From the NCBI GenBank assembly GCA_035489815.1, contig DATHJH010000005.1, forward strand, positions 20,406-84,405: DNA of 64,000 nt, in the 5' to 3' direction. Numbering within the stretch: position 1 is the first letter of the stretch; each line of letters begins with the position of its first letter. The position numbers and the translations under genes were made by a program. The notes under the pieces are model-generated. The model saw only the letters and a list, made by a program, of their open reading frames with translations. It made no database searches and had not been told where the DNA came from. This document shows positions 2,801 to 58,717 of this stretch, piece by piece. This DNA is from Candidatus Limnocylindria bacterium (GTDB taxonomy: Bacteria; Patescibacteriota; Saccharimonadia; Saccharimonadales; JAGQNK01).

Positions 2801-3403
2801 TTAGAGAATTTTATCCGGGGATTCACGATATTCGTTCGGCACACCTTCGTCTGTGCCTATATACCATGCATATGGCGGCAAACCAGAAATTTTAAGCGTC
2901 GGGTCATGCCTTCGATAAGTGCGCTGGCCCTTCCAGACATGAGCATAAGGAGCAATCTTTTCTTCGCCGCTTCCTGGTCGAGGGTTTCTAAGGGCTTTTA
3001 GAAATCTGGAAGCGCTCGGTGACGCACTCTCCCGCTTTACGCCGCCCAAAACAAACAGCTCCGCAACGCGGACGCCACTGACCGCTACACCATTTTCCAC
3101 CAGGTTACCAGCTACAAACCGACGAGCCTCTGACATATCCTCAATACCTTTCACAGAATCGCCTACTTGTATCTGTTCAAAGGTGCCGAAACGTAGCAGC
3201 AGATCCCCCAGCTTTGCCGCTGACAAGCCCTCACGCAGCCTTGAAAGAGCATCCGCTACGGCATCTGCCGCAGAGAGTATGTTTGCCCGCTCCTCAACTG
3301 TAGGGATGGATACATCCCCTTCCAGGCCGTTGGCCAGCTTATGCAAGCCCCCGGCCCATCTGTTCAAGTTCTGTTCCGCAGCTATAAATGAGCTTTCTTC
3401 CAT
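2801..3403 (-). CDS. hypothetical protein
   Basis: 200-aa ORF with no overlapping better ORF. No motif recognised. Confidence 0.45.
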   Translation of the reverse strand: MEESSFIAAEQNLNRWAGGLHKLANGLEGDVSIPTVEERANILSAADAVADALSRLREGLSAAKLGDLLLRFGTFEQIQVGDSVKGIEDMSEARRFVAGNLVENGVAVSGVRVAELFVLGGVKRESASPSASRFLKALRNPRPGSGEEKIAPYAHVWKGQRTYRRHDPTLKISGLPPYAWYIGTDEGVPNEYRESPDKIL

Positions 3404-3458
3404 ACATGTACTAAAAACCTTTTTTGGTATACTTGCAAGCCTCGCCTCCTACTTGACG

Positions 3459-3554
3459 CTCAAAACTTCCCCTCTGCCAGCACCCCAATCAAGTTGAGGG
3501 CAGGCTATCCAGCTTGACTGGGGGGAATGACGGTGGAGGGGTTGGGGTTTTGAG
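3459..3554. repeat. nested palindromic intergenic repeat, copy 1
   Basis: Left arm ctcaaaacttcccctc...ccccaatcaag pairs with right arm cttgactgggg..ggaatgacggtggaggggttggggttttgag. The same arms recur at 6473, 23254 and 43588. Confidence 0.8.
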
Positions 3555-3606
3555 AATCAGGTTCGTCTCACGATCTCACTAGAGCAGTGGTACAATAGCA
3601 GGAGTT

Positions 3607-4866
3607 ATGAAAGATGATTTCACGCCTGCTCGCAGGGCAGGGCAATCTTTTTTGCCAGTCCAAAGCGAGCCAGAAACCAAAACCCTCCCAAATATAAACG
3701 ACGATCCGGCGGCGGCTACTCAAGTCCATCAGGCCCCGGGCAGTGAACTGCCGCCGCCCCGACCGCACCTGCCGGCAGAAAAGCCCCGGCCCAAAGGACG
3801 GGGCCCCAAAGCCTGGTGGCGCAAATTCCGGGGCCTGAGCCGAAATAAAAAGATTATAGTACTTAGTGCGCTGGCAGGAATACTCATCGCTATCGGCGGC
3901 CTGGTATGGTATTTCGTCCTGCGCTCAGAACCGGCACCCCCGCCTCCGCCGCCAATCGTAAAAAAGGAAGAACCCAAACCCACTACCGTACCTTCACCCC
4001 TGACAGGAGTACAAGTCAAGCCGGAACTCGCGGCACTACCCACCACAGGGGTTATGCTAGAAAACAGCCCCGATGCCCGGCCGCAGTCCGGTCTGTATAA
4101 CGCCGGGGTAGTCTTTGAGGCTATTGCCGAGGGCGGCATAACCCGGTTTTTGGTTCTCTACCAGGAGGCCAAGCCAGAATATATTGGTCCCGTGCGCTCC
4201 GTACGACCCTACTACCTCGACTTCCTGGCGCCATTTGACGCACCCATTGCCCACGCCGGCGGCAGCGGGCAGGCACTGTCTGAACTACGGTCCCAGGGCC
4301 TCAAAGACCTGGAAGCCTTCCAAAGTCCCAACTATTATCAGCGCATCAGCAACCGGTACGCCCCGCACAATCTGTATACTGGCCGCTCCAAGTTGCTGGA
4401 ACTGCAAAAGGCCAAGGGCTGGACTAAAAGCACTTTCACCGGCTTTGCCAGAAAAGAGGAAAAGAAAGTCACCAGGACAAAGATCGGCAAAATCGACTTT
4501 TCCATATCCGGATTCTTATACAACGCACATTTTGACTATGACCTGAAAACCAACAGTTACAAACGCAGCTTGGCCGGCAAACCCCATACAGACGAAAAGG
4601 CCCGCCGGCAGATCAACCCCAAAACCGTCGTGGGGCTGGTCATGTCCCACCGTTACGCGGGCGTGTATTCAGTATATGGTGCCAGAGGCAAGGGAAGCGC
4701 TTTCTTTTTCCAGGACGGCACACTCGCTAAAGGCACCTGGGAGAAAAAGAATCGCACCAGCCAGTTTAAGTTCCTGGACAGCAAGGGCGAAACAGTGAAG
4801 CTTAACCCCGGCCAGACGTGGGTTACCATCGTCGGCAGCGCGGGCGCCGTGTCATACAAACCCTAA
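3607..4866 (+). CDS. DUF3048-family (YerB-like) secreted/membrane-anchored protein
   Basis: 419 aa. TM segment, proline-rich linker, then ARPQSGL...EGGITRF...GPVRSVRPYY...HAGGS, which I recognise as the DUF3048 core. Confidence 0.75.
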   Translation: MKDDFTPARRAGQSFLPVQSEPETKTLPNINDDPAAATQVHQAPGSELPPPRPHLPAEKPRPKGRGPKAWWRKFRGLSRNKKIIVLSALAGILIAIGGLVWYFVLRSEPAPPPPPPIVKKEEPKPTTVPSPLTGVQVKPELAALPTTGVMLENSPDARPQSGLYNAGVVFEAIAEGGITRFLVLYQEAKPEYIGPVRSVRPYYLDFLAPFDAPIAHAGGSGQALSELRSQGLKDLEAFQSPNYYQRISNRYAPHNLYTGRSKLLELQKAKGWTKSTFTGFARKEEKKVTRTKIGKIDFSISGFLYNAHFDYDLKTNSYKRSLAGKPHTDEKARRQINPKTVVGLVMSHRYAGVYSVYGARGKGSAFFFQDGTLAKGTWEKKNRTSQFKFLDSKGETVKLNPGQTWVTIVGSAGAVSYKP

Positions 4867-4888: not shown

Positions 4889-6421
4889 GTGGACGACTTT
4901 CAGAGACTCAGGCGCAAGGCTTACATCTACCTGATGTGTGTGCACGGGATTTTGATCCTGTTCGCACTTGGCTTCTTTCTGATTGCGACCGAAATGGGCT
5001 ATGACTTTCTGCCAGTAGCGTTTACCGACGGCCTCCTAACCCTAGTACTCGCTCACTTTGCAGCCAAAATATCCAGCCAGTTTGTTATGCAGCCTTTTCA
5101 CTTGCTGTGGCAGGCTATTTTGCACGTTGCGCCGGACAGCAATGCCGTGCCGCCGCCGAATATGCAAAAGTTGCTCTTTGGCCGGGAACTGGTAACCTCG
5201 TTAGCTAATCGGGTATACCAGTTTGCCAGCCAGCAGGACGGTACAGAACTGGCCAACCACCGCAAAGCCATTTCTCAGGCCGCGAACATTGTCAGCCACT
5301 TCCCGCTGCCGCTGTTTGTCTTTAACAAAGAGCAGGTAGTGACCAATGCCAGCAACTCGGCACTGGAATACTTGAATATTAAGAGCCCCCAGCTTTTTGG
5401 CCAGAAAATTTTTGATAGTGTTAACCTGGAATTCCAGGGCGAACACACCTTGGAGGCCTGGATAAAAGATTGTCAGGAAAACAAAGCCACAGACTACGGC
5501 GAATGGCACCGGGTGCATGTCGTACTGCGGGATGGCAAAACCGTCAAACAGTGCGACATCGCCGCCTACTACAATCGGGACAATGAAAGCGGGACAGAGT
5601 TTATCGTCACCTTTTTTGATCACACCGACGTATACAGCCAGGACGAACAAAGCCTCAGCTTTGTGGCTTTGGCGGTACACGAGCTGCGCACGCCCCTGAC
5701 CATGCTCCGGGGCTACATAGAGGTCTTTGAGGAAGAGCTGGAAGGCAAGCTGGACAAAGAGCTCGCCGACTACATGCATAAACTGCGCATCTCAACCGAC
5801 CAACTCACTGCCTTTGTATCCAACATCCTGAACGTCGTGCGGATAGAAGAAAACCAGTTGTCACTGACACTCGTTGAAAGCAAATGGGATCAACTGCTCA
5901 AGCAAGCTGCTGCCGGGCAACTCCTTCGTGCCCAAGTACTGGGCAAATCTATTACCTTTGTCGTAGAGGGCAAGCTGCCGACGGTGGCAGTCGATCCCGT
6001 TAGTATATCCGAGGTCGTCAACAACCTACTGGACAACGCCCTCAAATACAGTCCTACTAGTAAAGAGGTTATTGTCAAAGCCAGCATAAACCAGGAGGGC
6101 ATGATAGAAACCACCGTCCAGGACTTTGGAGTAGGCATCCCGGATAGTGTTATCCAAAACTTGTTTGAAAAGTTTTACCGTAACCACCGCACCCGTTCGC
6201 AAATTGGCGGCACGGGCCTGGGACTTTACCTAAGCAAGGCCATTGTCAACGCCCATGGCGGCAACATCTGGGTGCGGTCCAAGGTAGGGAAGGGCAGCAG
6301 CTTTAGCTTTACACTCCAGCCTTATGCTCAACTGGCTGACGAGCTTAAAAACAGCGACACCAGCGGCATTACCCGCCACGCCCATGGGTGGATTAAAAAC
6401 CACTCTATGTACAGAAGATAG
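4889..6421 (+). CDS. sensor histidine kinase
   Basis: 510 aa. N-terminal TM helices, H-box LAVHELRTPLTML, and HATPase G-boxes DFGVGIP and GGTGLGLYLSKAIV. GTG start in the track. Confidence 0.9.
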   Translation: MDDFQRLRRKAYIYLMCVHGILILFALGFFLIATEMGYDFLPVAFTDGLLTLVLAHFAAKISSQFVMQPFHLLWQAILHVAPDSNAVPPPNMQKLLFGRELVTSLANRVYQFASQQDGTELANHRKAISQAANIVSHFPLPLFVFNKEQVVTNASNSALEYLNIKSPQLFGQKIFDSVNLEFQGEHTLEAWIKDCQENKATDYGEWHRVHVVLRDGKTVKQCDIAAYYNRDNESGTEFIVTFFDHTDVYSQDEQSLSFVALAVHELRTPLTMLRGYIEVFEEELEGKLDKELADYMHKLRISTDQLTAFVSNILNVVRIEENQLSLTLVESKWDQLLKQAAAGQLLRAQVLGKSITFVVEGKLPTVAVDPVSISEVVNNLLDNALKYSPTSKEVIVKASINQEGMIETTVQDFGVGIPDSVIQNLFEKFYRNHRTRSQIGGTGLGLYLSKAIVNAHGGNIWVRSKVGKGSSFSFTLQPYAQLADELKNSDTSGITRHAHGWIKNHSMYRR

Positions 6422-6472
6422 CCATAGCCACGCACCACAAAAGCTCTATACGCAAGCATAGCTTGCCTGAGT

Positions 6473-6540
6473 CTCAAAACCCCCAATCCTGTCATACCGG
6501 ATCAAGCTGGGGATAACAGAGGAGGGGTTGGGGTTCTGAG
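6473..6540. repeat. nested palindromic intergenic repeat, copy 2 (short)
   Basis: ctcaaaacccccaatcctgtcatacc...ggataacagaggaggggttggggttctgag. Lies about 25 nt upstream of the receiver gene. Confidence 0.8.
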
Positions 6541-6565
6541 GGATCATGGTAGTATTTAAGTAACC

Positions 6566-6964
6566 ATGGACGAACCAACCACACCCACCGCCACTACAGC
6601 CAAAAAAGTCCTCTGTATAGAGGACGAGCATTTCATAAACGAACTCTACGCCCGGGCCCTTACCAAAGCCGGCTACCAAGTAAAGGTAGTCATAGATGGC
6701 GAAGAGGGCCTGCGCGAGGCACTGACCAACGCCTATGACATCATCTTGCTCGACATTATGCTGCCCAATCTCATAGGTACAGAGGTACTCAAGCGGCTAC
6801 GGGCCCAGCTCCCGGATCTCAGAGCCAAAATCATCATCACCACCAACCTGGAGTTAGGGGAAGAAGACCGGGCCGCCATAGAAGCCCAAGCCGATGGCTA
6901 TATAGTAAAAGCCGACCTCACCCCCCGCCAAATGGCCGAATTCCTCCAGCAGCTTGAGGTCTAA
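6566..6964 (+). CDS. single-domain response regulator (receiver only)
   Basis: 132 aa. CheY-like pattern (VLCIEDE, ILLDIMLP, TTN, K near the C-terminus). Its stop codon TAA lies inside the left inverted repeat of the IS. Confidence 0.9.
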   Translation: MDEPTTPTATTAKKVLCIEDEHFINELYARALTKAGYQVKVVIDGEEGLREALTNAYDIILLDIMLPNLIGTEVLKRLRAQLPDLRAKIIITTNLELGEEDRAAIEAQADGYIVKADLTPRQMAEFLQQLEV

Positions 6965-7022
6965 GAACCCATCCAAAATCTCCCACAATAATTAATCCAA
7001 CCTGACAAGTAAGCTAGAAAAA

Positions 7023-7049
7023 CAGTATGGCGTCAGCCATACTGTTTTT
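7023..7049 (+). terminator. rho-independent terminator inside the IS left end
   Basis: cagtatggc-gtca-gccatactg followed by ttttt, with an A-run upstream so it could act in both directions. Confidence 0.6.
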
Positions 7050-7076
7050 GGTCTGGTAAAAAGGAGAAACAAACAC

Positions 7077-7368
7077 GTGAATCGTAAAACCTACCCCAGT
7101 GATGTGACTCGGAAACAATTTGACAGCATACAGCCAATCCTTGAGTCGGGCCCGCAGGAAAACTAAACCACGTGAGCTTGACCTCTACGACGTGTTCTGT
7201 GCCGTGTTGTATCTACTGAAGAGCGGCTGCCAGTGGGATATGCTGCCGAGTGACCTCCCGAAGAAAAGCTCGGTTCATGCCTACTTCACTATCTGGAAAG
7301 AGCAGCGTGTGGATGAAGGCGGAAACTCGCAGCCGAGTGTACTTGAGGAAGTCTTAAAAAAAAATTAG
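7077..7368 (+). pseudogene. IS5-family transposase N-terminal part (OrfA), internally frameshifted
   Basis: The GTG frame reads NRKTYPSDVTRKQFDSIQPILESGP, then stops at 7161-7163. The homologous continuation RRKTKPRELDLYDVFCAVLYLLKSGCQWDMLP is in the +1 frame (ORF 7120..7368). Confidence 0.65.
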
Positions 7369-7886
7369 TTGGCGAGGTTCGTATGTCCAATGGTCGGAAC
7401 AAGAGCACCACTTTTCTGATCATTGACGCCCAGTCCGTCAAGAACACCGACACTGCGAAAGAAAAAGGCTATGATGCCGGCAAGAAGGTCTCTGGCATAA
7501 AGCGGCACATTGCCGTTGACACCAATGGCTTACCTCACGCCATCCATGCGACCACAGCCAACGTCAGTGACAAGGCTGGCGCACGGGCTATGGTGGCAGC
7601 CTACCAGGAAGACTTGCAGCAAGTGGAGAAAGTACTGGTAGATGGGGGCTACCGAGGCCGACCGTTTGCTGACGCCATACAAACTGCGCTCAAGGCCGAG
7701 GTTGAGGTCGTCAAGCGCAATGAACTTCATACCTTCAAAGTGCTGCCGAAACGCTGGGTGGTGGAACGCTCACTATCCTGGCTTGAGAAGTGTCGAAGAC
7801 TCTGGAAGAACTGTGAACACTACTTAGCAACCAGCCTGCAGATGGTGGTGTTGGCCTTTGTTGCGCTTTTACTTAAAAGGTTTTAG
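7353..7886 (+). CDS. IS5-family DDE transposase catalytic part (OrfB)
   Basis: IIDAQSVKNTD...VDTNG...LVDGGYRG...VVERSLSWLEKCRRL is typical of DDE_Tnp_1. The frame opens at the A9 run (7356-7364), consistent with a -1 slip from OrfA. The listed ATG ORF is 7383..7886. Confidence 0.8.
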   Translation, partial: LKKKLVGEVRMSNGRNKSTTFLIIDAQSVKNTDTAKEKGYDAGKKVSGIKRHIAVDTNGLPHAIHATTANVSDKAGARAMVAAYQEDLQQVEKVLVDGGYRGRPFADAIQTALKAEVEVVKRNELHTFKVLPKRWVVERSLSWLEKCRRLWKNCEHYLATSLQMVVLAFVALLLKRF

Positions 7887-7955
7887 GAGATTTTGGATGG
7901 GTTCTTAGAACTATCCAAGGTCTCTCTTCCAGGGAGAGGAGGTTTGGGATGGGCT

Positions 7956-8525
7956 CTAAGGATCGGGCACTCCTTCAGTAAGCGCATCCAACACCGTAGT
8001 CGCCACTGCACCGGCCAGCCGGGCAAGTCTTTCCACGTCAGTATCAAAGCCCATGACCAACTCCTGCATTGTCCAGCTTTGAGGAGAAGAAGGGTCACTA
8101 TGGTCAAAGATATAGCCTGTTTCCATGGGACGAAAGGCACGTTCGTTAAAGGGCAACCCGGCCGAGAGCCTGTAATCATTCGAGCCAGGCGGACCAGCAA
8201 AAACTTGAACTATTACGTGGCCTCTTTGTGGCCAGATCCTTACAAACTCATCTCCTGCAGTTCTGTCCATACGCCTATTTGGCACCCGCGTTTGGTCTTC
8301 AAAGATCGCATCAATATCTCTGCCGTATACATCCGCGTGAGGCCAGATAGCCCCCACAATAGTCGGCCCTAGAGAGACCGGGAGTCCCAGCTTTTCGTAT
8401 ACCTCAAGCCCGTAGGTGCTGATGGTTTGCAGCTTTGCCTGTGCTTTACGCGCATCACCGGCCGTTACCCCTCTTGGAAATTCGCCTTTTGGTATACGAT
8501 GCCAGAAAGGGAAGTCTTCACTCAT
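7956..8525 (-). CDS. hypothetical protein
   Basis: 189-aa ORF. No motif recognised. Confidence 0.5.
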   Translation of the reverse strand: MSEDFPFWHRIPKGEFPRGVTAGDARKAQAKLQTISTYGLEVYEKLGLPVSLGPTIVGAIWPHADVYGRDIDAIFEDQTRVPNRRMDRTAGDEFVRIWPQRGHVIVQVFAGPPGSNDYRLSAGLPFNERAFRPMETGYIFDHSDPSSPQSWTMQELVMGFDTDVERLARLAGAVATTVLDALTEGVPDP

Positions 8526-8710: not shown

Positions 8711-9049
8711 ATGTATTACGAAAATCCCCAGGGCGTCTCTGTGCACGGTGGGTTTCCCAACCCAGCCACAGACGCCAGCCTCCAAGGCATTGATCTCAAC
8801 AAGTTATTAGTCCAAAACAGCGTCAGCACCTATCTGATGCGCATTGCCGGTAATGAATGGCAGGCGCTGGGCATTTTTGCTGGCGACATTATCATTGTGG
8901 ACCGAGCACTCGGGGCACACAAAACCGACCTGGTTATATGGGTCCAGGGCAGTGACCTGGCTATTTCGACCCGTCATACCGTACCCAAGGACGCACAGGT
9001 ATGGGGCGTAGTCACCAGTGTCATCCACCAGTACAGGAGGCAATCATGA
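8711..9049 (+). CDS. UmuD'-like protein (S24-peptidase fold, catalytic dyad apparently absent)
   Basis: GGFPNPATD...IDLNKLLVQN..TYLMRIAGNEW..GIFAGDIIIVD aligns by eye with E. coli UmuD CGFPSPAADY..IDLNQLLIQH..TYFVKASGDSM..GISDGDLLIVD. The Ser of GDSM is Glu here, and the Lys position reads STR. Confidence 0.7.
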   Translation: MYYENPQGVSVHGGFPNPATDASLQGIDLNKLLVQNSVSTYLMRIAGNEWQALGIFAGDIIIVDRALGAHKTDLVIWVQGSDLAISTRHTVPKDAQVWGVVTSVIHQYRRQS

Positions 9050-9068
9050 GCCGTATTGCCTCCACACC

Positions 9069-9098
9069 TGTCATTCCCGACTTGATCGGGAATCCGGT
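9069..9098. repeat. short hairpin related to the palindromic repeat core
   Basis: tgtcattcccgacttgatcgggaatccgg shares the gtcat.cc core motif. Lies between the umuD-like and umuC-like genes. Confidence 0.5.
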
Positions 9099-9161
9099 CA
9101 AAAACAAAGTCATTATAAATCCTTCGGTCAGGCCAAGCACAGCAGAAAGCGGGGGCAAGCA

Positions 9162-10445
9162 ATGAAAAATCCCGTCTTTGCCCTGATTGACTGCAATAAC
9201 TTCTTTGTCAGCTGCGAACGTGTTTTTCGCCCCGACCTCGCCACCAAACCAGTTGCCGTACTTTCCAGCAATGACGGCTGCGTCGTGGCCCGGAGTAACG
9301 AAGTCAAGGCGCTTGGCATCCCTATGGCGGCCCCGGCATTCAAGTACCGGGAAATCTTTGACCGCCACGGCATAGTGAAGTTCAGCGCCAACTTTGAACT
9401 CTACGGCAATATGTCGCGGCGCATTACCGAGCTGCTGACCACCATCACCCCGCGCATAGAAGTCTATTCCGTGGATGAATCGTTCCTGGACCTCAGCCAG
9501 CTGGATATCCGGGACCACACAGCGTGGGGGCATAAGGTCCGGGAATCCATCCTCCAGTGGACTGGCCTCCCCGTATCTATAGGGATCGCACCCAGCAAGT
9601 CCCTGGCCAAACTGGCCAGTGACCGCGGCAAGAAAGTACCAGCTCTTGATGGTGTACTAAGTTTGATGGGCAACCCAGAAACAGACTGGCATTTGAGCCA
9701 AGTACCCGTGGGCGACGTCTGGGGCATTGGCTGGCGGCTAGCGCCTAAAATGAGGGCAGAGGGGGCGGGCACGGCCCTGCACCTGGCTCAACTCAGCCCC
9801 CAGCGGGCCCAGCAGCTCATGGGCATCCGCGGCCGGCAGTTGGTGGCGGAACTAAACGGCATCAGTTGCTTTCCGCTAGATCTAGAGCACCAAAAACCCA
9901 AAAGCATCCTACGCAGCCGAACGTTCGGAGAAGACACCTCTCTAGCCAGCGTGATAGAAGCCGCCCTAGCATCGTTTGCTACCACGGCTGCTTTTCGTTT
10001 ACGACGCAGCAGCCAACTGGCCCGCAGGGCAGGAATATTCCTAGATACCAACAAACACAAACCCGGTTTCCGCCGCTGGAGCAGGGAAGTCATCTATCAG
10101 GTACCAACCGCAGACACGGGACAACTCATTAGCGACACCATAAACCTATTCAGCCAAATCTACAGCCCCAGAATGTCCTACCACAGAGCAGGGGTGTGGC
10201 TAGGTGATTTCAGGCCGGCAGACTATCTGCAAACAGACCTGCTGGGCGCCATAGATCCGGCCAAGCATGATCGAGCCCAAGCCCGCATGCAAGCCGTAGA
10301 CGTCCTAAATGAAAGATTCGGAAAACGCACCATCCGCTACGCCACCGAGGACCTTGCCCAAAAATGGCAACCCCGGCACCACACCCGCAGCCCCCGCTAC
10401 ACCACCCGCCCGGACGAACTGCCCACGGCAAAAATAGTGCCATGA
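9162..10445 (+). CDS. umuC: Y-family DNA polymerase, UmuC-like
   Basis: From the internal Met: MKNPVFALIDCNNFFVSCERVFRPDL..PVAVLSSNDGCVVARS..YSVDESFLDL closely parallels the UmuC N-terminus. The upstream part of ORF 9018.. overlaps a repeat and looks non-coding. Confidence 0.85.
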   Translation: MKNPVFALIDCNNFFVSCERVFRPDLATKPVAVLSSNDGCVVARSNEVKALGIPMAAPAFKYREIFDRHGIVKFSANFELYGNMSRRITELLTTITPRIEVYSVDESFLDLSQLDIRDHTAWGHKVRESILQWTGLPVSIGIAPSKSLAKLASDRGKKVPALDGVLSLMGNPETDWHLSQVPVGDVWGIGWRLAPKMRAEGAGTALHLAQLSPQRAQQLMGIRGRQLVAELNGISCFPLDLEHQKPKSILRSRTFGEDTSLASVIEAALASFATTAAFRLRRSSQLARRAGIFLDTNKHKPGFRRWSREVIYQVPTADTGQLISDTINLFSQIYSPRMSYHRAGVWLGDFRPADYLQTDLLGAIDPAKHDRAQARMQAVDVLNERFGKRTIRYATEDLAQKWQPRHHTRSPRYTTRPDELPTAKIVP

Positions 10446-10511: not shown

Positions 10512-10590
10512 GGCCTCACCGTCTAACGCTTCGGGTAATCATGAGGTACCGGGTAATCTGGTGTCGTGACCGCTGGACAAGGTAGTTACT
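10512..10590 (+). repeat. tRNA-Glu-derived sequence, copy A1 (mini-helix-like)
   Basis: The 30-nt ggcctcaccgtctaacgcttcgggtaatca mimics the tRNA 5' acceptor and D arm. It is followed directly by tgaggtacc, which resembles the 3' acceptor strand. Confidence 0.6.
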
Positions 10591-10609
10591 TAAAAATTCA
10601 AAAACACAT

Positions 10610-10688
10610 GGCCTCACCGTCTAACGCTTCGGGTAATCAATAGACACCAGGAAACCTGGTGGCATAACCGTTAGACAGTGGCTACCCT
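10610..10688 (+). repeat. tRNA-Glu-derived sequence, copy A2 (pseudo-tRNA-like)
   Basis: Identical 30-nt 5' block, then gacaccagg-aaa-cctggtg: the tRNA anticodon stem with a collapsed loop. Then ccgttagac, which pairs with gtctaacg. Confidence 0.6.
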
Positions 10689-10707
10689 TACAATAGAAAC
10701 ATTACGC

Positions 10708-10782
10708 GGCCTCATCGTCTAACGGTTAGGACACCAGGTTCTCATCCTGGCAATCGGGGTTCGATTCCCCGTGAGGTCACCA
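10708..10782 (+). tRNA. tRNA-Glu (anticodon CUC), CCA encoded
   Basis: Hand-folded cloverleaf: acceptor GGCCTCA/TGAGGTC, D arm GTCT-AACGGTTA-GGAC, anticodon arm CCAGG-TTCTCAT-CCTGG, T arm CGGGG-TTCGATT-CCCCG, then ACCA. Confidence 0.85.
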
Positions 10783-21879: not shown

Positions 21880-23187
21880 ATGGCAAAAATCATGCTCGTC
21901 GAAGACGACAACAACCTGCGCGAAATCTACGAGGCGCGTTTGCTGGCAGAAGGGTATGAGATAGTCTCCGCAGAAGATGGCGAACAAGCGCTTGCGCTTG
22001 CCGTAAAGGAAAAGCCTGACCTTATCATCAGCGATGTCATGATGCCAAAGATCAGCGGCTTTGACATGCTGGACATTCTGCGCAGCACACCAGAGACCAG
22101 GAACACCAAGGTTATTATGATGACCGCTTTGTCCCAGGCCGAAGACAAGGCCCGGGCCGACAAGCTGGGCGCAGACAGGTATCTGGTCAAATCCCAGGTT
22201 ACCCTGGAAGATGTAGCCAAGGTGGCACGTGAAGTCCTCCAGGACGAAGATACCGTACCCGCAGCAGCCGCAGTGGGGGCTCAGTCAACAGCACCAGTAC
22301 CCGGGCCAGCAAGCACGCCTCCAGCCGTTACACCGACACCCGTAGCGGCAGAACCTCCTGTACAGACACAGACACCTGTCGTCCCAGCCCCGCCTGTCAT
22401 ACCTCCCGTTCAACCACCTGCAGAGCCTCCAGCCAGTCCGGCTCCGCCGCCCGCAGCACCAGATCCGGGCCAGCAAACCGTAACCCCCGCAGGCGATCCA
22501 GGAGGTTCTTCGCAAGTTGAACCCCCAAAAGTCCCACCGACGACCCCCCAGCCGACAGTTAGCCTGCCGGCAGTAGACCCTGCCCAGATGCAGACGACGG
22601 CTGCTGAAACAGCTAACATAGAAAAACAAATTACTGATTTTGTTCAAAACATGCCCAGGCCTAATCCGGCAGCGCCTGCTCTCCCGGCACCAGTGTCGTC
22701 ACCGCCCTCCACACCCAGGCCTCCGGTCATGCCGATAACACCTGAACCTCCGGCTTCTTCTACAGATTCAACGAACGTGGCGGCCGGATCAGCCGCAACT
22801 ATGGCAAATACCGTGAATAACCTTCTGCAAAAATCTGCTCAGGCCGCCGCCCCAGCGGCAGACTCAACTCCAGATACCCCTCGGCTGGCAGTTCCGCACT
22901 CCAATCAGATATCGGGCAAGAAGGTGATAACGCCCCTCAATGACCTGTCTGCAAAGAGCGGCCCGGACCTCAACGAGCTCCTGGCCAAAGAAATGGCTGG
23001 CACCACGGCCCCGTCGCCACAACTCCAACCAGTCAGTCAAATCCCGCTACCGACGCAGCCGATGCCCGCACCCATGCCTTCTCCTGTTACCCCACAAGCC
23101 CCCGGCACTGATGAAGAAGTCGACATAAAGCCCCCTGGCAACGTCGTCCAGCCAGGCGGCCAAGACCCCAACTCCATAGCCCTGTAG
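21880..23187 (+). CDS. response-regulator receiver fused to a ~300-aa proline-rich tail
   Basis: 435 aa. The N-terminal 120 aa are CheY-like (MLVEDD, DLIISDVMMPK, TAL, K). The rest is low-complexity P/T/A/Q with no recognisable output domain. Confidence 0.85.
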   Translation: MAKIMLVEDDNNLREIYEARLLAEGYEIVSAEDGEQALALAVKEKPDLIISDVMMPKISGFDMLDILRSTPETRNTKVIMMTALSQAEDKARADKLGADRYLVKSQVTLEDVAKVAREVLQDEDTVPAAAAVGAQSTAPVPGPASTPPAVTPTPVAAEPPVQTQTPVVPAPPVIPPVQPPAEPPASPAPPPAAPDPGQQTVTPAGDPGGSSQVEPPKVPPTTPQPTVSLPAVDPAQMQTTAAETANIEKQITDFVQNMPRPNPAAPALPAPVSSPPSTPRPPVMPITPEPPASSTDSTNVAAGSAATMANTVNNLLQKSAQAAAPAADSTPDTPRLAVPHSNQISGKKVITPLNDLSAKSGPDLNELLAKEMAGTTAPSPQLQPVSQIPLPTQPMPAPMPSPVTPQAPGTDEEVDIKPPGNVVQPGGQDPNSIAL

Positions 23188-23253
23188 GAGTAGGGAAACC
23201 CTAAACACGAAGCCCTAAATCCTAAACAAATTCAAATATCTAATACCTATAGT

Positions 23254-23380
23254 CTCAAAACCTCCAATCCCGTCATACCGGGCCTGACCCGGTATCCTCA
23301 AATAAAGAAAATTAACTATTGTATCTACTACTGGATTCCCGGGTCTAGTTGGGAATGACGGTGGAGGTTGGGGTTTTGAG
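23254..23380. repeat. nested palindromic intergenic repeat, copy 3
   Basis: ctcaaaacctccaatcccgtcataccggg ... gggaatgacggtggaggttggggttttgag. Sits inside a second, imperfect outer inverted repeat. Confidence 0.8.
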
Positions 23381-23499
23381 GGTCAGGTTCTGATGATCAA
23401 AATATAAAACAGGCTGCCCTTGAAGCTGTTTGGAACATTTGGATTTTGAAATTATTTAGAGTTTAGGTATTAGGATTTAGGATTTCTAGTCGTTAGACT

Positions 23500-24168
23500 A
23501 TGGATGTGCGTCTAAACAAATACCTCGCCCTCGCAACCGGCATGTCCCGCCGGTCGGCTGACAATGTCATTGCCAAAGGGCAGGTGTTCATCAACAACAC
23601 CCCCGCACAACTCGGACAACAAATAGAACCAGACAAAGACGCCGTACTACTAAACGGGAAACTAGTAGCTCCACCAGAAAAACCTATAACCATCATGCTC
23701 AACAAGCCCAGTGGGTACGTCTGCTCACGGGACGGGCAGGGCAGTAAAACGGTCTACGACCTGCTGCCGGGCCAATACCGCCAGCTCAAGCCAGTGGGAC
23801 GCCTTGACAAAGAGTCCTCTGGGCTTCTGCTGCTCACCACTGACGGAACACTCGCCTACGAACTAACTCACCCTAGTTTCCAAAAAGAAAAACGCTACGA
23901 AATACAGCTAGACCACGACCTGAGCAAAAAAGATTTTGAACTAATCACTAAAACAGGTGTGCAGTTAGAAGATGGTCCCAGTAAATTGAAGCTCAACTTC
24001 ATAAACGACGGCAATACCGCATGGAAGGTCACCATGGCAGAGGGTCGCAACCGCCAAATCCGCCGCACCTTCGAAGCCCTTGGCTACCAGGTAACAAAAC
24101 TCCACCGCACTCACTTTGGCCCATATACCCTAAAAGTACTTAAAAGCGGTGAATGCACAGTGGTGTAA
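23500..24168 (+). CDS. pseudouridine synthase, RsuA/RluB family
   Basis: 222 aa. S4-like N-terminus (RLNKYLA..G.SRR.AD..I..G.V.IN) and the catalytic GRLDKESSGLLLLTTDG motif. Confidence 0.9.
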   Translation: MDVRLNKYLALATGMSRRSADNVIAKGQVFINNTPAQLGQQIEPDKDAVLLNGKLVAPPEKPITIMLNKPSGYVCSRDGQGSKTVYDLLPGQYRQLKPVGRLDKESSGLLLLTTDGTLAYELTHPSFQKEKRYEIQLDHDLSKKDFELITKTGVQLEDGPSKLKLNFINDGNTAWKVTMAEGRNRQIRRTFEALGYQVTKLHRTHFGPYTLKVLKSGECTVV

Positions 24169-27668: not shown

Positions 27669-28526
27669 ATGAAAATATATAAGATTTCATATAACTCGGA
27701 TGACTTTCCGTCAACCCTCAGGCATATACCAAGCCCGCCGAAAGAGCTGTATATTTTAGGCGACCTGGGACCGCTCCTGGAAAAACCACTTCTGGCCGTC
27801 GTAGGCAGCCGCAAGGTCACCCCTTATGGCAGGAGCATTACGCTGGACCTGGTACGGGCGGTCGCCTCGCAACGGGTTGTCATCATCAGCGGCATGGCGC
27901 TGGGTGTCGACGCACTCGCTCACCAGGCAGCGCTGGAAGTAGGCGGCAAGACAATTGCCGTATTGCCCTGCGGCCTGGACAAACCCTATCCCGCCACCAA
28001 CCGTCAGCTTGCCCGGAAGATCCTGGAACAGGGCGGGGTACTTATGAGCGAGTACCCCGAAGGGACACCCCCGCTTATCCAGAACTTCATAGCCCGTAAT
28101 CGTCTGGAGTCGGGGATGAGTGACGGCGTATTAATTACCGAGGCAGCCATAAAAAGCGGCACTGTACATACTGCCAGGTTTGCACTTGAACAGGGCAAAA
28201 CCGTCATGGCCGTGCCGGGAAACATCACGAGTGAACTATCCAAAGGCACAAACAACCTCATTCGCAGCGGTGCCGTGCCGGTGACCAGGCCAGAAGATAT
28301 ATTTGAAGTGCTAGACATCATGGGTACACCAGAGGACCATGAAGTTGTAGCAGCCAATGCAGAAGAAGCCGCCATCCTGCAGCTTCTCAAACAAGGTATT
28401 ACCGACAGCAGTATCCTGCAAACTTCCAGCCAGCTGGAAGTAGTCGTATTTAATCAGACCCTCACCATGCTGGAGCTAACTGGCAAGATTCGTCCTTTGG
28501 GTGCGGGCCACTGGTCGCTGGCTTAA
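27669..28526 (+). CDS. dprA: DNA-processing protein DprA (Smf)
   Basis: 285 aa. LAVVGSRKVTPYG...IISGMALGVDALAHQAAL...VLPCGLD...FIARNR are typical DprA Rossmann-fold motifs. Confidence 0.9.
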   Translation: MKIYKISYNSDDFPSTLRHIPSPPKELYILGDLGPLLEKPLLAVVGSRKVTPYGRSITLDLVRAVASQRVVIISGMALGVDALAHQAALEVGGKTIAVLPCGLDKPYPATNRQLARKILEQGGVLMSEYPEGTPPLIQNFIARNRLESGMSDGVLITEAAIKSGTVHTARFALEQGKTVMAVPGNITSELSKGTNNLIRSGAVPVTRPEDIFEVLDIMGTPEDHEVVAANAEEAAILQLLKQGITDSSILQTSSQLEVVVFNQTLTMLELTGKIRPLGAGHWSLA

Positions 28527-32778: not shown

Positions 32779-32903
32779 GTCATGCCGGACTTGAGGAGCT
32801 TGCCCCGTGCTTGATACGGGGGCATCCAGGCCATAGCAAGGAGAACTGGATTCTGAACCCGTCCGGCCCGTCCGAATGGATAGCCGGTCAAGTTCAGATT
32901 GAC
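32779..32903. repeat. core-only relative of the palindromic repeat family
   Basis: gtcatgccggacttgag...cttgatacgggggcatccagg...actggattc...ccggtcaagttc shares the gtcat.cc / atcc.gg / actggatt / gtcaag blocks with the inner parts of copies 3 and 4. Confidence 0.5.
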
Positions 32904-43544: not shown

Positions 43545-43587
43545 ACTATACTACCAAATTGTTCAACTGTCAATAGCCCCATCCAAC

Positions 43588-43708
43588 CTCAAAACCCACC
43601 CCTGTCATCCCCCAATCAAGCCCAGGGTCAAGCCGGAGGATCTGGTAGTAAAAAAACTGGATTGTCTGGTCAAGCCAGACAATGACAGTGGAGCAGTGGG
43701 GTTTTGAG
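43588..43708. repeat. nested palindromic intergenic repeat, copy 4
   Basis: ctcaaaacccacccctgtcatcccccaatcaagcc ... caatgacagtggagcagtggggttttgag. Confidence 0.8.
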
Positions 43709-43745
43709 ATTCAGGTACTTTCCTTCTTGGACTTGTTTGCGCGAC

Positions 43746-46091: not shown

Positions 46092-46336
46092 TTTATATGG
46101 TCAAAGTATAAGTAGTCGGTTTGACATAGAATGTGAGAATTCTTACTCCAGAACCTGTTCTAAGAACCTGTCCACAATCTCCAATCCCGTCCCAAAATCA
46201 CCCATTCTGACGTCAATACACCCCAGCTCCCCAGCCGTACCTATAGGTAGGATAGGAAACCTGGAACGAATTGCTATTGATTTTCTAAAAGAAAATGGAG
46301 CAATTTTGGGCTCGGGAGCGAGATTGTGAACAGGCT

Positions 46337-47608
46337 CTAACTTTCTGTAATGTTTTTGATCCTGGCAGCAAACCATTTGGCACTGGGACGAATAGTCCGT
46401 TTCATGTTGCGTTTACGGTCTACCTCTACCAACCCAAACCTGGGCCACCAGCCGTATTTCCATTCAAAATTGTCCAGCAGGCTCCAGTGGAAATAGCCGC
46501 GCAGGTCAACCCCTTCACTCAGGGCCCGTTCCATGGCTATTATTGTTTCCTCCAGCCACCATCGGCGATAGTCGTCGGTGTCATCAGCCACCCCGTTTTC
46601 TGTGACGTAAATCGGTTTTTTGTAGCGGGCCCAGGTGCGGAGTAGTAACGGGTACAGTCCTTCCGGCTCCATATACCAGCCCAGGTCATTCAGAGGTACA
46701 TGGGGGTTAATCTTTTTCATGAGGCCCGTGTAGTAGTCGGTAAAGTAATAGTTGAACCCTACAAAATCCTGATAGTTTCTGACGCGGGCCAAAAACCACC
46801 AGTTCCAGGCAGTACGCATAATCTTGGTCGAAAGCTGGTCAAAAAAGTTATGCGGCCGCTTTGCCTGGATATTTGCCAGCTGTTGGGCTATACCTATTTG
46901 CAGCATGGGTTTGCGTTTTTTGAGTATTTTGTATGCCCGCTTGTGCGCCGTAACCAGGTTAAAGTACACCCGCATGGAACTGAGGAGATTCTTTTCCTCT
47001 GGCGGCCATTCACCGGTTGTGTACCCAAAGACCGTAAAGACATTGGGTTCATTCAGCGTAATAATGTAGCCGACGTCATCCACCAGCTCCTCGGCTACCC
47101 TCTCTATAAACCGTTCAAAGTACTTGATATTTGCCCGCTTTTTGAACCCACCTTTTGCGTCAAACCAGATGGGTACTGTCCAGTGCCATAAGTTAACAAA
47201 CGGCTCTATATGCCGGGCACGCAGCTCCCGAATGTATTCACGGTAGTGCTCAATGGCTTCCTCATCCCACTTGCCTTCTTCTGGTTCCAGGCGCGACCAC
47301 TCTATGCCGAACCGGAAGGCGTTCATGTGCAGCTGCTGGACAATATCAAAGTCTTCCTTGTACCGCTTGTAGTGCTCTACGCCTTTGCCGGACACGTAAT
47401 TGTCAGGGTCCTCGGCTTCCTCCTTAATGTCGTTCCAGCTTGGCAGCCAGCCCAAACGTTGGTGTGCGGTTTGGGCCAGCTCCTTGGCGTGGGCCAGCTC
47501 CCAGACCGTCCACTGGTTCTCCAGTCCGCCCTCTACCTGATGCGCTGCCGTACTTGCCCCCCAGAAAAAGTGTTTTGGGAAAATCTTATCGTTACTGTTT
47601 TCGTTCAT
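46337..47608 (-). CDS. GH1-family beta-glucosidase
   Basis: 423 aa. FFWGASTAAHQVEG, ITLNEPNVF (acid/base) and YVTENGVAD (nucleophile). Confidence 0.9.
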   Translation of the reverse strand: MNENSNDKIFPKHFFWGASTAAHQVEGGLENQWTVWELAHAKELAQTAHQRLGWLPSWNDIKEEAEDPDNYVSGKGVEHYKRYKEDFDIVQQLHMNAFRFGIEWSRLEPEEGKWDEEAIEHYREYIRELRARHIEPFVNLWHWTVPIWFDAKGGFKKRANIKYFERFIERVAEELVDDVGYIITLNEPNVFTVFGYTTGEWPPEEKNLLSSMRVYFNLVTAHKRAYKILKKRKPMLQIGIAQQLANIQAKRPHNFFDQLSTKIMRTAWNWWFLARVRNYQDFVGFNYYFTDYYTGLMKKINPHVPLNDLGWYMEPEGLYPLLLRTWARYKKPIYVTENGVADDTDDYRRWWLEETIIAMERALSEGVDLRGYFHWSLLDNFEWKYGWWPRFGLVEVDRKRNMKRTIRPSAKWFAARIKNITES

Positions 47609-57750: not shown

Positions 57751-57887
57751 AATGCAGAAATTATATTGAATCTTATTACAATTGTAAATTATGTGGCATT
57801 AATTCTCTCGGTTCGATCTGGGCGTTGCCCCATTCCATATGAGCGAGAAACCGCTTTAGTATACCCCAGGTTCTCCGTACCACTTTC

Positions 57888-58082
57888 CTTAGAACCCATC
57901 CAAAATCTTTTCCTCTGACTCCGACCCTTCTCCGTATAGAAGTTCACATGCAACCCAACTGCCTTCTTATTGACTATAGCTCCGAAGGGTACCTACCCGG
58001 GTACCTTTCAGACCAAAAAACAGCCGGCTCACATCCGAAAGGTGGTCTCGGCAAGGAGAAAAGATCCTGGATGGGTTCTTAG
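57888..58082. mobile_element. 195-bp MITE-like derivative of the IS5-family element
   Basis: Ends cttagaacccatccaaaatct and agatcctggatgggttcttag match the IS terminal repeats (6961/7886). No coding capacity between them. Confidence 0.65.
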
Positions 58083-58717
58083 CAAAGTAAGCAGACTGCG
58101 CCCAAGGCCTGTATTTCTACGCTATCCTCCAGACGCAGATTGGTTTCCTCGCCCCGTTTCTCTTTTGCTACTAGTGCTGGTAAGTCAAAGCCACTAAACT
58201 CTCGGCCTTCTTCATACGGCGGCTTGACTCCCTGGTTTCGTGTCAGAGCCCGTGACACAAACAGCATGCTTGCTGGTCCGTCGTAGGCATCCCCCTGAGT
58301 AAGACTCGGATAAAGCACATGAGCCGCTATGGCGGCCTCAGGACCTACCCCGGAGACAACTATCATGCGGGCCCTCCCTGCGTGGAACCGAGCCGCCCGT
58401 GCAACAACATTATGCTTGTCCCCCACAAACTCCTGTAGCGGGCCCACCAGGGCATCAAAAGCTTTGGCATACTGAGTGGTCGTTTTATGTTCTGGCGCAG
58501 CTAGCCGGGTAGAGCTTTCCGATCCTGCAAAGCTCAAGGCAGTAGCAGCGCCCAAGCCCAAGACCTTGCCTTCCAGATTTGGCTTACCCTGGCTGCCAAC
58601 CAGCAAATAATCTCTTTGCAGATCTGGTGATTTAAAGAAAGTATGGTCCTTAGGCTCCCCGCTCACTAGAGACGAGGTCGTCCAGCCGCTTGGTCCTTCG
58701 TGCATGTCTCCTTGCAT
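58079..58717 (-). CDS. hypothetical protein
   Basis: 212-aa ORF. Its stop codon (TAA at 58079-58081) lies within the MITE terminal repeat. Confidence 0.45.
   Translation of the reverse strand: MQGDMHEGPSGWTTSSLVSGEPKDHTFFKSPDLQRDYLLVGSQGKPNLEGKVLGLGAATALSFAGSESSTRLAAPEHKTTTQYAKAFDALVGPLQEFVGDKHNVVARAARFHAGRARMIVVSGVGPEAAIAAHVLYPSLTQGDAYDGPASMLFVSRALTRNQGVKPPYEEGREFSGFDLPALVAKEKRGEETNLRLEDSVEIQALGAVCLLC

What the first reader, a model, noticed from the sequence alone, without database searches (positions are those of the whole stretch)
3459..3554. Family of nested palindromic intergenic repeats (at least 4 full copies plus relatives)
A composite inverted repeat recurs at 3459-3554, 6473-6540, 23254-23380 and 43588-43708.
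- Outer arms: CTCAAAACC(C/T)CCAATCC.GTCAT.CC on the left and GGAATGAC.G.GGAGG.GTTGGGGTT(T/C)TGAG on the right, usually followed by ..TCAGGT.
- The inner part is variable and itself palindromic.
- Related core-only or half copies lie at 32779-32903, 9069-9098 and 46177-46191.
- All copies are intergenic. Three of them end 25-120 nt upstream of a + strand start codon.

The design (conserved outer stem, variable inner stem) resembles REP/MITE-type elements, but I do not recognise this sequence as a named family. It could act as a terminator or insulator, an RNA-stability element, or the substrate of a REP-associated transposase encoded elsewhere.
Basis: seen in the sequence. Interest (0 to 1): 0.55.

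Follow-up and report, generated by a model that had tools for sequence, protein, structure and literature searches.

The report
Hairpin-nuclease-linked mosaic repeat in Saccharibacteria
The repeat is real: it is a lineage-specific intergenic palindrome of a Saccharibacteria genome, built around small hairpin units of the kind that Ssn single-strand DNA nucleases recognise, and the same genome encodes such a nuclease flanked by the same hairpins.

Summary
Four copies (3451-3562, 6465-6549, 23246-23388, 43581-43716) are confirmed, against 0 expected by chance. A half copy lies at 9070-9113 and a degenerate core at 32779-32903. The proposed relative at 46177-46191 belongs to a different, IS-derived element.

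The host is a Candidatus Saccharibacteria MAG. More copies from other contigs of the same MAG give a ~140-nt consensus: about 30-nt outer inverted arms around an inverted pair of 30-nt hairpin units and an AT-rich spacer. The unit is GTC, then AT-N6/7, loop CTTGA, N6/7-AT, then CCAGT. Its stems covary at 7 of 8 pairs.

The unit has the design of the NTS/SRM hairpins cut as single-stranded DNA by Ssn GIY-YIG nucleases (PMC11893778). A 95-aa single-domain GIY-YIG gene in the same MAG is flanked on both sides by these units. A second Saccharibacteria species has the same arrangement.

The composite with outer arms occurs only in this MAG and one sister lineage. It is absent from the matching spacers of relatives.

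Verdict: a REP/NIME-like mosaic element, most likely an Ssn-substrate repeat rather than a RAYT or classical MITE system. How it spreads and what it does in the cell are inferred, not shown. It is a new variant of a known kind, of moderate interest.

The parts
3451..3562 (+). Copy c1 of the composite repeat. Degenerate left arm 3459-3478. Two CTTGA/TCAAG-loop hairpins at 3483-3500 and 3509-3521. Well-conserved right arm 3523-3562. It lies between divergent genes (2801-3403 on the - strand, DUF3048 gene 3607-4866 on the + strand).
   Evidence: (35.2 bits on +, 17.6 on -).
6465..6549 (+). Copy c2, the short form. Left arm with GTCAT 6466-6495, a single degenerate hairpin 6496-6512, right arm 6513-6549. 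It lies between the histidine kinase gene (4889-6421) and the response regulator gene (6566-6964).
   Evidence: (31.0 bits on +, 10.1 on -). The orthologous spacer in relative L096 is 48 nt and lacks the element.
23246..23388 (+). Copy c3, the canonical full form. Left arm 23246-23271, forward hairpin unit 23272-23297, AT-rich spacer 23298-23330, reverse hairpin unit 23331-23359, right arm 23360-23388.
   Evidence: 119.5 bits on +, 43.7 on -; fold z-scores -4.5 as RNA, -4.3 as DNA. The same spacer is 12-13 nt long in four close relatives.
43581..43716 (+). Copy c4. Left arm 43587-43608, variant inner hairpins 43609-43645, perfect reverse unit 43657-43686 (9-bp stem), right arm 43687-43716. It lies between two - strand genes.
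   Evidence: (47.7 bits on +, 28.8 on -).
9070..9113 (+). Half copy in the umuD-umuC spacer: one perfect forward unit (GTC ATTCCCGA cttga TCGGGAAT CC) followed by TCAAAAACAAAGTCAT. It aligns over 45 columns with the unit and gene end downstream of the GIY-YIG gene in L003.
   Evidence: The orthologous copy in relative L096 (13201-13230) has two compensatory stem changes. The insert is absent from L098 and L012.
32779..32903 (+). Degenerate core-only copy without outer arms: GTCAT, hairpins with CTTGA and TCAAG loops, a central CCAGG...CTGGAT stem, ending in TTGAC.
   Evidence: Read from the sequence. Only a weak model hit (32852-32898, E = 3.5), so this assignment is tentative.

Best explanation
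What it is: a lineage-specific composite (mosaic) palindromic repeat of a Candidatus Saccharibacteria genome.

Anatomy:
- The working modules are 30-nt oriented hairpin units: GTC, an 8-9 bp stem that begins with AT, the loop CTTGA, the returning stem, then C-CAGT.
- This is the design of the NTS/SRM hairpins that single-domain GIY-YIG 'Ssn' nucleases bind and nick only in single-stranded DNA.
- In a full copy, two such units face each other across an AT-rich spacer. This is the same arrangement in which they flank the genome's own ssn-like gene.
- That core is enclosed by about 30-nt inverted outer arms found only in this lineage.

Inferred mechanism:
- When a strand carrying the element becomes single-stranded (DNA taken up by natural transformation, replication or repair), the unit folds.
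- The Ssn-like nuclease binds it and cuts a few nucleotides 5' of it, which is inside the outer arm.
- Because the two units are inverted, either strand presents one forward unit.
- The expected consequence is fragmentation of incoming homologous single strands and locally altered recombination, as shown for Neisseria.
- The copies look like gene-less derivatives of the unit-ssn-unit module that have multiplied. The route of multiplication is unknown.

Shown: the anatomy, the stem covariation, the linkage to an ssn-like gene in the same MAG, the lineage restriction and the lack of the element at matching sites of relatives.
Inferred: binding and cleavage by this nuclease, and the effect on transformation or recombination.
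For: Anatomy:
- Twelve copies from the MAG and a sister lineage align to an outer-arm / GTCAT-hairpin / spacer / hairpin-ATGAC plan.
- With DNA parameters both strands of the canonical copy fold as an outer stem plus three hairpins, z about -8.

The hairpin unit:
- 13 perfect units share GTC upstream, AT-closed stems, a 5-nt loop and CC after the stem.
- At least 9 different stems occur. All 96 cells pair and 7 of 8 pairs carry changes on both sides, with a covariation score of 0.82 against 0.27 in shuffles.
- Such units occur 14 times in about 150 kb of this clade, against 4 in 1.4 Mb of relatives.

Link to the literature (PMC11893778):
- The NTS is CGTCAT-palindrome-ATCYRG.
- Cleavage depends on the 3 nt upstream of the palindrome, and binding on the C right after it.
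- SsnA is 94 aa and cuts only ssDNA.
- The gene architecture is NTS-ssnA-NTS.

The gene:
- L003 5515-5799(-) encodes a 95-aa protein with only a GIY-YIG domain (Pfam E = 1.4e-16). Y17 and E65 lie close to SsnA's Y17 and E64.
- It is flanked by inverted units at 5483-5512 and 5804-5833.
- It belongs to the same MAG as the window. Window proteins are HTE21613, HTE21637 and HTE21676; the nuclease and its neighbours are HTE22413 to HTE22426; all carry the same organism label.
- A 74% identical homolog in another Saccharibacteria species sits in the same efp-gene-tlyA position and is flanked by the same units.

Wider family:
- The pattern GTCATNCC-N3-CTTGA-N3-GGNATCCAG hits 49 IMG/VR stretches with GC from 43 to 73%.
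- 47 of 52 sites are perfectly complementary at the free pairs, 15 different stems occur, and 19 have an inverted partner within 250 nt.

Lineage restriction and empty sites.
Against: - None of the 13 Saccharibacterial units matches the published degenerate SRM expression; only 17 of 52 IMG/VR units do.
- Assignment of the 95-aa protein to the Ssn subfamily (cd10448) was not tested directly. The best solved relatives are UPF0213 GIY-YIG proteins, and only weakly.
- For N. meningitidis SsnA the stem sequence matters and the loop does not. Here stems vary freely and the loop is fixed, so not all units need be substrates.
- No ssn gene lies in the window itself.
- The outer arms have no counterpart in the Ssn literature, and GIY-YIG nucleases are not known to move DNA, so the spread is unexplained.
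- No biochemical or expression data exist for this organism.
Confidence: 0.6

Rival explanations
1. Classical MITE: a non-autonomous element moved as double-stranded DNA by a DDE transposase that recognises the roughly 30-bp terminal inverted repeats. The inner hairpins are passenger sequence.
For: - Size of 85-180 nt, non-coding, long terminal inverted arms, intergenic location.
- Absent from the matching spacers of relatives.
- The window does hold an active-looking IS and two derivatives of it.
- A 13-nt string of the c3 left arm recurs in one of those derivatives.
Against: - No target-site duplication can be read at any copy.
- No IS with matching ends was found in any sequence held.
- Similarity of the arms to the resident IS ends is not significant (shuffle p = 0.045 to 0.28).
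- No transposase lies next to any copy.
- The left arm is much less conserved than the right, which is unusual for transposase-binding ends.
Confidence: 0.15
2. REP/REPIN-type repeat multiplied by a RAYT (Y1/HUH) transposase acting on single-stranded hairpins.
For: - Extragenic hairpins, doublets in inverted orientation, mosaic clusters.
- Within-contig co-orientation that would fit a strand-specific single-strand process.
- A Y1_Tnp gene exists in another Saccharibacteria genome (L149).
Against: - No Y1 transposase was found among the ORFs checked in the MAG. Pfam or NCBIfam was run on 30 of them, and pre-computed Pfam calls cover window 1-10.5 kb and 58-64 kb.
- The units carry GTCAT, not the GTAG-type head known for RAYT substrates (established knowledge).
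- The units instead flank a GIY-YIG gene.
Confidence: 0.08
3. RNA-level element: once transcribed, the long stem acts as a bidirectional terminator, insulator or mRNA-stabilising structure, or the element is a small RNA gene.
For: - Very stable predicted folds (RNA z from -2.7 to -9.9 for five copies).
- The outer arms have an A-tract / GC-rich stem / T-tract layout.
- Most copies follow a gene end.
- The + strand folds better than the - strand and has more G-T than A-C mismatches (26 against 10).
Against: - c1 lies between divergent genes.
- Relative to flanking genes the copies are sense in about 3 cases and antisense in about 6.
- The short copy c2 folds no better than its shuffles (z = -0.15).
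- No terminator-like site in c3, the one copy scanned.
- No Rfam family at gathering or relaxed thresholds.
- The unit family is documented as a DNA, not an RNA, ligand (PMC11893778).
Confidence: 0.12

Closest known systems
NTS / Ssn-related motif (SRM) hairpin repeats with Ssn GIY-YIG single-strand nucleases (Neisseria meningitidis SsnA; PMC11893778)
   Same: - Oriented hairpin with conserved GTC(AT) upstream and ATC-C(AG) downstream.
- Dispersed intergenic copies.
- A small single-domain GIY-YIG gene of 94-95 aa flanked on both sides by the units.
- Host with natural-competence genes (dprA lies at 27669-28526 in the window).
   Different: - The units do not fit the published SRM expression.
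- Stems are hypervariable and the loop CTTGA is fixed, whereas the reverse holds for N. meningitidis.
- Units are packaged as inverted pairs inside a long lineage-specific outer palindrome.
- The host is a CPR/Saccharibacteria genome, which that paper does not mention.
- No biochemistry exists here.
Neisseria intergenic mosaic elements (NIMEs: repeat units flanked by dRS3 inverted repeats)
   Same: Mosaic intergenic elements whose boundaries or modules are dRS3/NTS-type hairpins. One unit here (9073-9093) even reads ATTCCC-N9-GGGAAT.
   Different: - No sequence relationship beyond the short flanks.
- The dRS3 consensus (ATTCCC-N8-GGGAAT) is not kept.
- Here the hairpins are inside the element and a separate pair of arms is outside.
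REP/BIME and REPIN elements with RAYT transposases (Enterobacteria, Pseudomonas)
   Same: Extragenic palindromes, inverted doublets, mosaic combinations, a partner enzyme that acts on single-stranded hairpins, and a single-copy partner gene flanked by the repeats.
   Different: Different enzyme class (GIY-YIG, not Y1/HUH) and a different head sequence. No RAYT was seen.
BOX elements of Streptococcus pneumoniae and Correia elements of Neisseria (bacterial MITE-like repeats)
   Same: Conserved terminal modules that pair with each other, a variable number of inner modules (BOX), size of about 100-200 nt, intergenic location.
   Different: No sequence similarity. No TA or other duplication as in Correia. 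The inner modules are NTS/SRM-like hairpins.

Membership tests
NTS/SRM hairpin repeats of the Ssn system | Hairpin with an orientation given by conserved flanks: 3 nt upstream of the palindrome and a C immediately after it | tested here: met
   All 13 perfect units have GTC before the AT-closed stem and CC after it; 11 of the 13 continue CCAG. The criteria come from PMC11893778.
NTS/SRM hairpin repeats of the Ssn system | Match to the published search expression HGTCWYN(0-2)YYVSBRHN(0-5)WNVSBRGN(0-2)RNCYNB | tested here: not met
   0 of 13 Saccharibacterial units match, including those flanking the gene. 17 of 52 IMG/VR units of the same CTTGA type match.
NTS/SRM hairpin repeats of the Ssn system | A single-domain GIY-YIG protein of about 94 aa encoded in the same genome | tested here: met
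   L003 5515-5799(-): 95 aa, Pfam GIY-YIG only, E = 1.4e-16. Same MAG as the window by accession series and label.
NTS/SRM hairpin repeats of the Ssn system | The protein belongs to subfamily cd10448 (GIY-YIG_unchar_3) | not testable with these tools
   No CDD search was available. Indirect support comes from the length and from Y17/E65 lying close to SsnA's Y17/E64. PDB relatives are only weak UPF0213 hits.
NTS/SRM hairpin repeats of the Ssn system | Units flank the nuclease gene on both sides (NTS-ssnA-NTS) | tested here: met
   L003 units at 5483-5512(+) and 5804-5833(-). L149 has units on both sides of the 74% identical homolog.
NTS/SRM hairpin repeats of the Ssn system | Binding and cleavage of the forward strand as ssDNA only | not testable with these tools
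   Needs purified protein and oligonucleotides.
MITE | Terminal inverted repeats, small size, no coding capacity | tested here: met
   Outer arms of about 30 nt; length 85-180 nt; indels in the arms break any reading frame.
MITE | Target-site duplication | tested here: inconclusive
   No consistent duplication at 12 copies. Spacers of relatives are too diverged to read exact junctions.
MITE | A parent IS with matching ends | tested here: not met
   None in the sequence held. The resident IS ends are not significantly similar. Zero hits for the right-arm pattern in 185,579 species genomes and in IMG/VR. The rest of the MAG was not searched.
REP/REPIN with RAYT | A Y1 (RAYT) transposase gene flanked by the repeats | tested here: inconclusive
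   None among the ORFs scanned with Pfam or NCBIfam (30) or among the pre-computed Pfam calls for L001 and L095. About half of the window's ORFs and most of the genome were not scanned.
Intrinsic terminator | GC-rich stem with a short loop, followed directly by a T-run | tested here: not met
   No terminator-like site in 23100-23550. The TTTT tract lies inside the outer stem, not after it.
Any Rfam RNA family | Score at or near the gathering threshold | tested here: not met
   Only a tRNA in the window. Nothing credible with relaxed thresholds on three copies.

The most novel reading that the evidence does not exclude
The composite copies are non-autonomous derivatives of the unit-ssn-unit module that are multiplied through single-stranded intermediates made by the Ssn-like GIY-YIG nuclease. 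The nuclease would nick both strands just inside the outer arms and host functions would rejoin them. If so, Ssn with its hairpins would be a previously unrecognised kind of mobile or self-propagating system. In a naturally competent, genome-reduced CPR bacterium it would also partition incoming DNA and so shape recombination. The within-contig co-orientation, the half copy that carries the 3' end of the ssn gene (9070-9113), and the better-conserved right arm would be footprints of that process.
Probability: 0.15. Interest if true: 0.75.

Novelty: new variant of a known kind. Interest (0 to 1): 0.5.

Why it matters
- Ssn nucleases and their hairpin repeats were described only in 2025, mainly in Pseudomonadati.
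- This locus extends the pairing to Saccharibacteria (CPR), where DNA uptake is central to the lifestyle.
- It shows a packaged form of the repeat: an inverted unit pair inside lineage-specific arms, which has multiplied in one species-level lineage.
- It offers a natural series of stem variants with a fixed loop, useful for working out what an Ssn enzyme reads.
- It gives concrete substrates and a concrete 95-aa enzyme for testing whether Ssn systems propagate their own repeats.
- For annotation, it explains spurious small ORFs called across these hairpins. One such 39-aa ORF is called in this locus.

Tried and rejected
- Rfam at gathering and relaxed thresholds: nothing.
- Right-arm pattern in GTDB species genomes and in IMG/VR: 0 hits each.
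- Consensus against plasmids: no match.
- Search for target-site duplications and exact empty sites: the spacers of the 89-91% relatives are too diverged.
- Similarity of the arms to the resident IS ends: not significant.
- Orientation against GC skew: inconsistent, because the L006 contig has the opposite sign.
- Strand asymmetry of wobble pairs: 26 against 10, suggestive only and dependent on the alignment.
- A first regular-expression screen for GIY-YIG ORFs missed the gene because its motif reads YVY. The gene was found only through paired units about 290 nt apart.
- GIY-YIG ORFs next to the IMG/VR units: none found.
- Integron attC, CRISPR, tRNA-like, Y RNA and promoter readings were considered from the sequence and dropped. 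There are no cassette arrays, no tandem arrays and no consistent position relative to genes.
- Terminator scan of c3: negative.

Full report
**1. Observation**

The four reported copies exist and share the described arms.
- The right-arm pattern ATNACNGNGGAG-N1-4-TGGGGTTYTGAG occurs four times in the window and never in 100 dinucleotide-preserving shuffles.
- A covariance model of the full element (R1) was built from five full-length copies, one of them window copy c3. Run over the whole window without filters, it finds only these four places as significant.
- Each place scores much higher on the + strand: 119.5 against 43.7, 47.7 against 28.8, 35.2 against 17.6, and 31.0 against 10.1 bits. 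All four therefore have the same orientation.
- All four are intergenic.

The proposed relatives fare differently.
- 9069-9098 is a perfect hairpin unit.
- 32779-32903 reads as a degenerate core without arms, but the model barely sees it.
- 46177-46191 lies inside another inverted-repeat element, 46163-46338, whose ends resemble those of the IS at 6957-7912. It is not a member.

**2. Host and further copies**

The window is chromosomal. It carries gltX, umuDC, der, topA and a penicillin-binding protein gene, at 51% GC.
- Its Der protein is labelled Candidatus Limnocylindria at NCBI.
- All close relatives are Candidatus Saccharibacteria / Saccharimonadales.

A metagenome scan with the right-arm pattern gave six stretches from Ga0193742 plus one likely chance hit.
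- Exact-sequence look-ups place three of those stretches, on two contigs, in the same TPA MAG as the window.
- Window proteins are HTE21613, HTE21637 and HTE21676. The proteins of these contigs are HTE21725 and HTE22413 to HTE22426. All have the same organism label.

These copies give a consensus of about 140 nt:

ACCTGAGTCTCAAAACCTCCAATCCT | GTCAT ACCGGG CTTGA CCCGGT ATCCAGT | CAATAAAGAAATTAATTACTTGTATCT | ACTGGAT TCCCAA TCTAG TTGGGA ATGAC | GGTGGAGGGTTGGGGTTTTGAGACTCAGGT

- With DNA parameters, both strands of this form fold as an outer stem plus three hairpins (-38 and -34.7 kcal/mol, z about -8).
- Other copies swap, add or lose inner hairpins, so the element is a mosaic.
- The right arm is much better conserved than the left. 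It always carries an extra GGTGGAG-type bulge next to ATGAC.

**3. Distribution**

- The composite with outer arms is absent from 185,579 GTDB species genomes and from IMG/VR.
- R1 finds it in none of the 80 Der loci of related Saccharimonadales (1.3 Mb) or in three other relatives' loci, L012, L013 and L098.
- It occurs only in this MAG and, as one diverged copy, in a sister lineage whose Der protein is 91% identical (L009).

Matching sites in relatives are short or unrelated.
- The response-regulator to pseudouridine-synthase spacer is 12-13 nt in four close relatives. It is 313 nt in the window, where it holds c3.
- The kinase to regulator spacer is 48 nt in L096, against 145 nt with c2.
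- c1 is missing upstream of a conserved promoter-like region.
- The spacers are too diverged to read exact junctions, and no target-site duplication is visible.

**4. The inner unit**

Thirteen perfect units were found in the MAG and its sister lineage; 11 are distinct sequences, and a unit from L149 made up the 12 rows counted.
- They share GTC, an AT-closed stem of 8-9 bp, a 5-nt loop (mostly CTTGA) and CCAGT.
- The stems differ: at least nine versions occur. Every cell still pairs, and 7 of 8 pairs carry changes on both sides. The covariation score is 0.82, against 0.27 in shuffles and 0.13 or less when the partners are slid.
- The units were collected with a filter that required at least 6 of 8 pairs. 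Perfect pairing is therefore partly selected, but no unit with 6 or 7 pairs was found.
- The orthologous half copies in the umuD-umuC spacer of the window and of L096 differ by two compensatory double changes.

The fixed-flank pattern GTCATNCC-N3-CTTGA-N3-GGNATCCAG hits 49 IMG/VR stretches with GC from 43 to 73%.
- 47 of 52 distinct sites are perfectly complementary at the four free pairs.
- 15 different stems occur.
- 19 sites have an inverted partner within 250 nt.

The unit is therefore a member of a cross-phylum hairpin family, and the inverted pair is a common arrangement of it.

**5. Identification with a known system**

A full-text search for the flank strings led to PMC11893778. That paper reports the following.
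- It defines the Neisseria Transformation Sequence, CGTCATTCCCGCGMAVGCGGGAATCYRG, and the broader Ssn-related motifs (SRM).
- SsnA, a 94-aa single-domain GIY-YIG protein, binds these hairpins and cuts a few nucleotides upstream. It acts only on single-stranded DNA and only on the forward strand.
- Cleavage depends on the three nucleotides before the palindrome. Binding depends on the C right after it.
- ssnA genes are typically flanked by the repeats.
- SsnA lowers integration of transforming DNA that carries the repeats.

The units here keep exactly those flanks: GTC before, C after, then CAG.

Two units about 290 nt apart in inverted orientation in L003 enclose an ORF.
- Its 95-aa product has only a GIY-YIG domain (E = 1.4e-16). 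A Tyr at position 17 and a Glu at position 65 lie close to the mutated Y17 and E64 of SsnA.
- The gene lies between efp and a tlyA/ftsJ-like gene.
- A 74% identical homolog in another Saccharibacteria species lies in the same position and is flanked by the same units. That 20-kb locus has no further copy of the repeat.
- The half copy at 9070-9113 aligns with the unit plus the last codons of this gene. Segments of the gene locus have therefore been copied elsewhere.

Caveats:
- None of the Saccharibacterial units fits the published SRM expression.
- The subfamily assignment (cd10448) could not be tested.
- No ssn gene lies in the window itself.

**6. How it most likely works**

Shown:
- the anatomy;
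- covarying hairpins with fixed flanks;
- an Ssn-like gene in the same genome bracketed by the same units;
- multiplication restricted to one lineage.

Inferred:
- On single-stranded DNA each strand of a full copy offers one forward unit preceded by an outer arm.
- The nuclease would bind the hairpin and nick inside the arm.
- Incoming single strands, or strands exposed during replication or repair, would be cut at these sites. Recombination around them would change, as in Neisseria.
- The window also carries dprA, which fits a competent lifestyle (one search gives the Pfam assignment for the orthologue).

Not explained:
- how the copies spread;
- what the outer arms add;
- why copies are co-oriented within contigs (window 4 of 4, Ga0193742_1000129 3 of 3, the L006 contig 2 of 2, and one tail-to-tail pair in L004) when gene direction and GC skew give no consistent rule.

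**7. Rivals**

- Classical MITE. It fits the arms and the size. It lacks a duplication, a parent IS and significant similarity to the resident IS ends.
- RAYT/REP system. It fits the single-strand logic. No Y1 gene was seen among the ORFs checked in this MAG, and the units flank a GIY-YIG gene instead.
- RNA-level role. It fits the strong folds and the A-tract/T-tract layout. It is contradicted by a copy between divergent genes, mixed orientation relative to transcription, no terminator-like site in the one copy scanned, and no Rfam match. Secondary effects on transcripts remain possible.

**8. Novelty and score**

- Extragenic mosaic palindromes and Ssn-related hairpins are both known.
- New here are the host group, the packaged architecture (an inverted unit pair inside lineage-specific arms), the loop-fixed and stem-variable units, and the conserved efp-ssn-tlyA placement in two Saccharibacteria species.
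- I rate this a new variant of a known kind, with interest 0.5.

Noticed in passing
window 6957-7912; 57882-58088; 46163-46338; 7940-7960; 63777-63797: An insertion sequence with a DDE_Tnp_1 ORF and 32-nt terminal inverted repeats (91% complementary). Two short derivatives have related ends (31-nt and 36-nt arms), and there are two solitary ends. Copies of both derivatives (85% and 80% identical) occur on other contigs (L006 3-195, L002 1675-1798). This second, unrelated repeat family has a recognisable parent IS.
   Followed up: partly
window 10512-10782 and about 10.9-17 kb: tRNA-Glu(CTC) at 10708-10782 is preceded by two 68-nt direct repeats (82% identical), one of which is complementary to part of the tRNA. 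It is followed by a low-GC stretch (44-47%) carrying a Fic gene. Relatives pass from umuC to other genes without this stretch, so it is probably an integrated island.
   Followed up: no
window 23188-23245 with 23389-23499: Copy c3 sits inside another AT-rich palindrome. With c3 removed, the flanks fold into a long hairpin (-45.3 kcal/mol). Four close relatives have only 12-13 nt at this spacer, and L009 has a different palindrome there. Several layers of inserted palindromes are present at one site.
   Followed up: partly
window 9046-9165: A public gene call places a 39-aa ORF across the hairpin unit between umuD and umuC (peptide ...PVIPDLIGNPV...). It is most likely a spurious ORF created by the repeat.
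   Followed up: partly
whole window (protein accessions HTE21613 to HTE21676): The MAG is labelled Candidatus Limnocylindria (Chloroflexota) at NCBI. Its Der, histidine kinase and EF-P proteins have their closest relatives in Candidatus Saccharibacteria / Saccharimonadales, so the label looks wrong.
   Followed up: partly
L005 9-126 and 6031-6149; L002 13349-13467: The 6.2-kb contig L005 ends in 118-nt inverted repeats that are identical to the end of L002. This is either an assembly artefact at a repeat or the ends of a larger element.
   Followed up: no
L068 2185-2208 and 3409-3432; L149 18779-19417: Another Saccharimonadales genome (UBA5145) has two units of a different stem and loop type (gtcATCCTGAA...TTCAGGATccc). 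The species that holds the 74% ssn homolog also has a Y1_Tnp gene 8.5 kb from it.
   Followed up: no
L003 4699-6408 and L149 9389-11120: The small GIY-YIG gene lies between efp and a tlyA/ftsJ-like gene in two Saccharibacteria species that share 74% identity in this protein. It therefore appears to be a vertically kept chromosomal gene rather than a recent arrival.
   Followed up: partly
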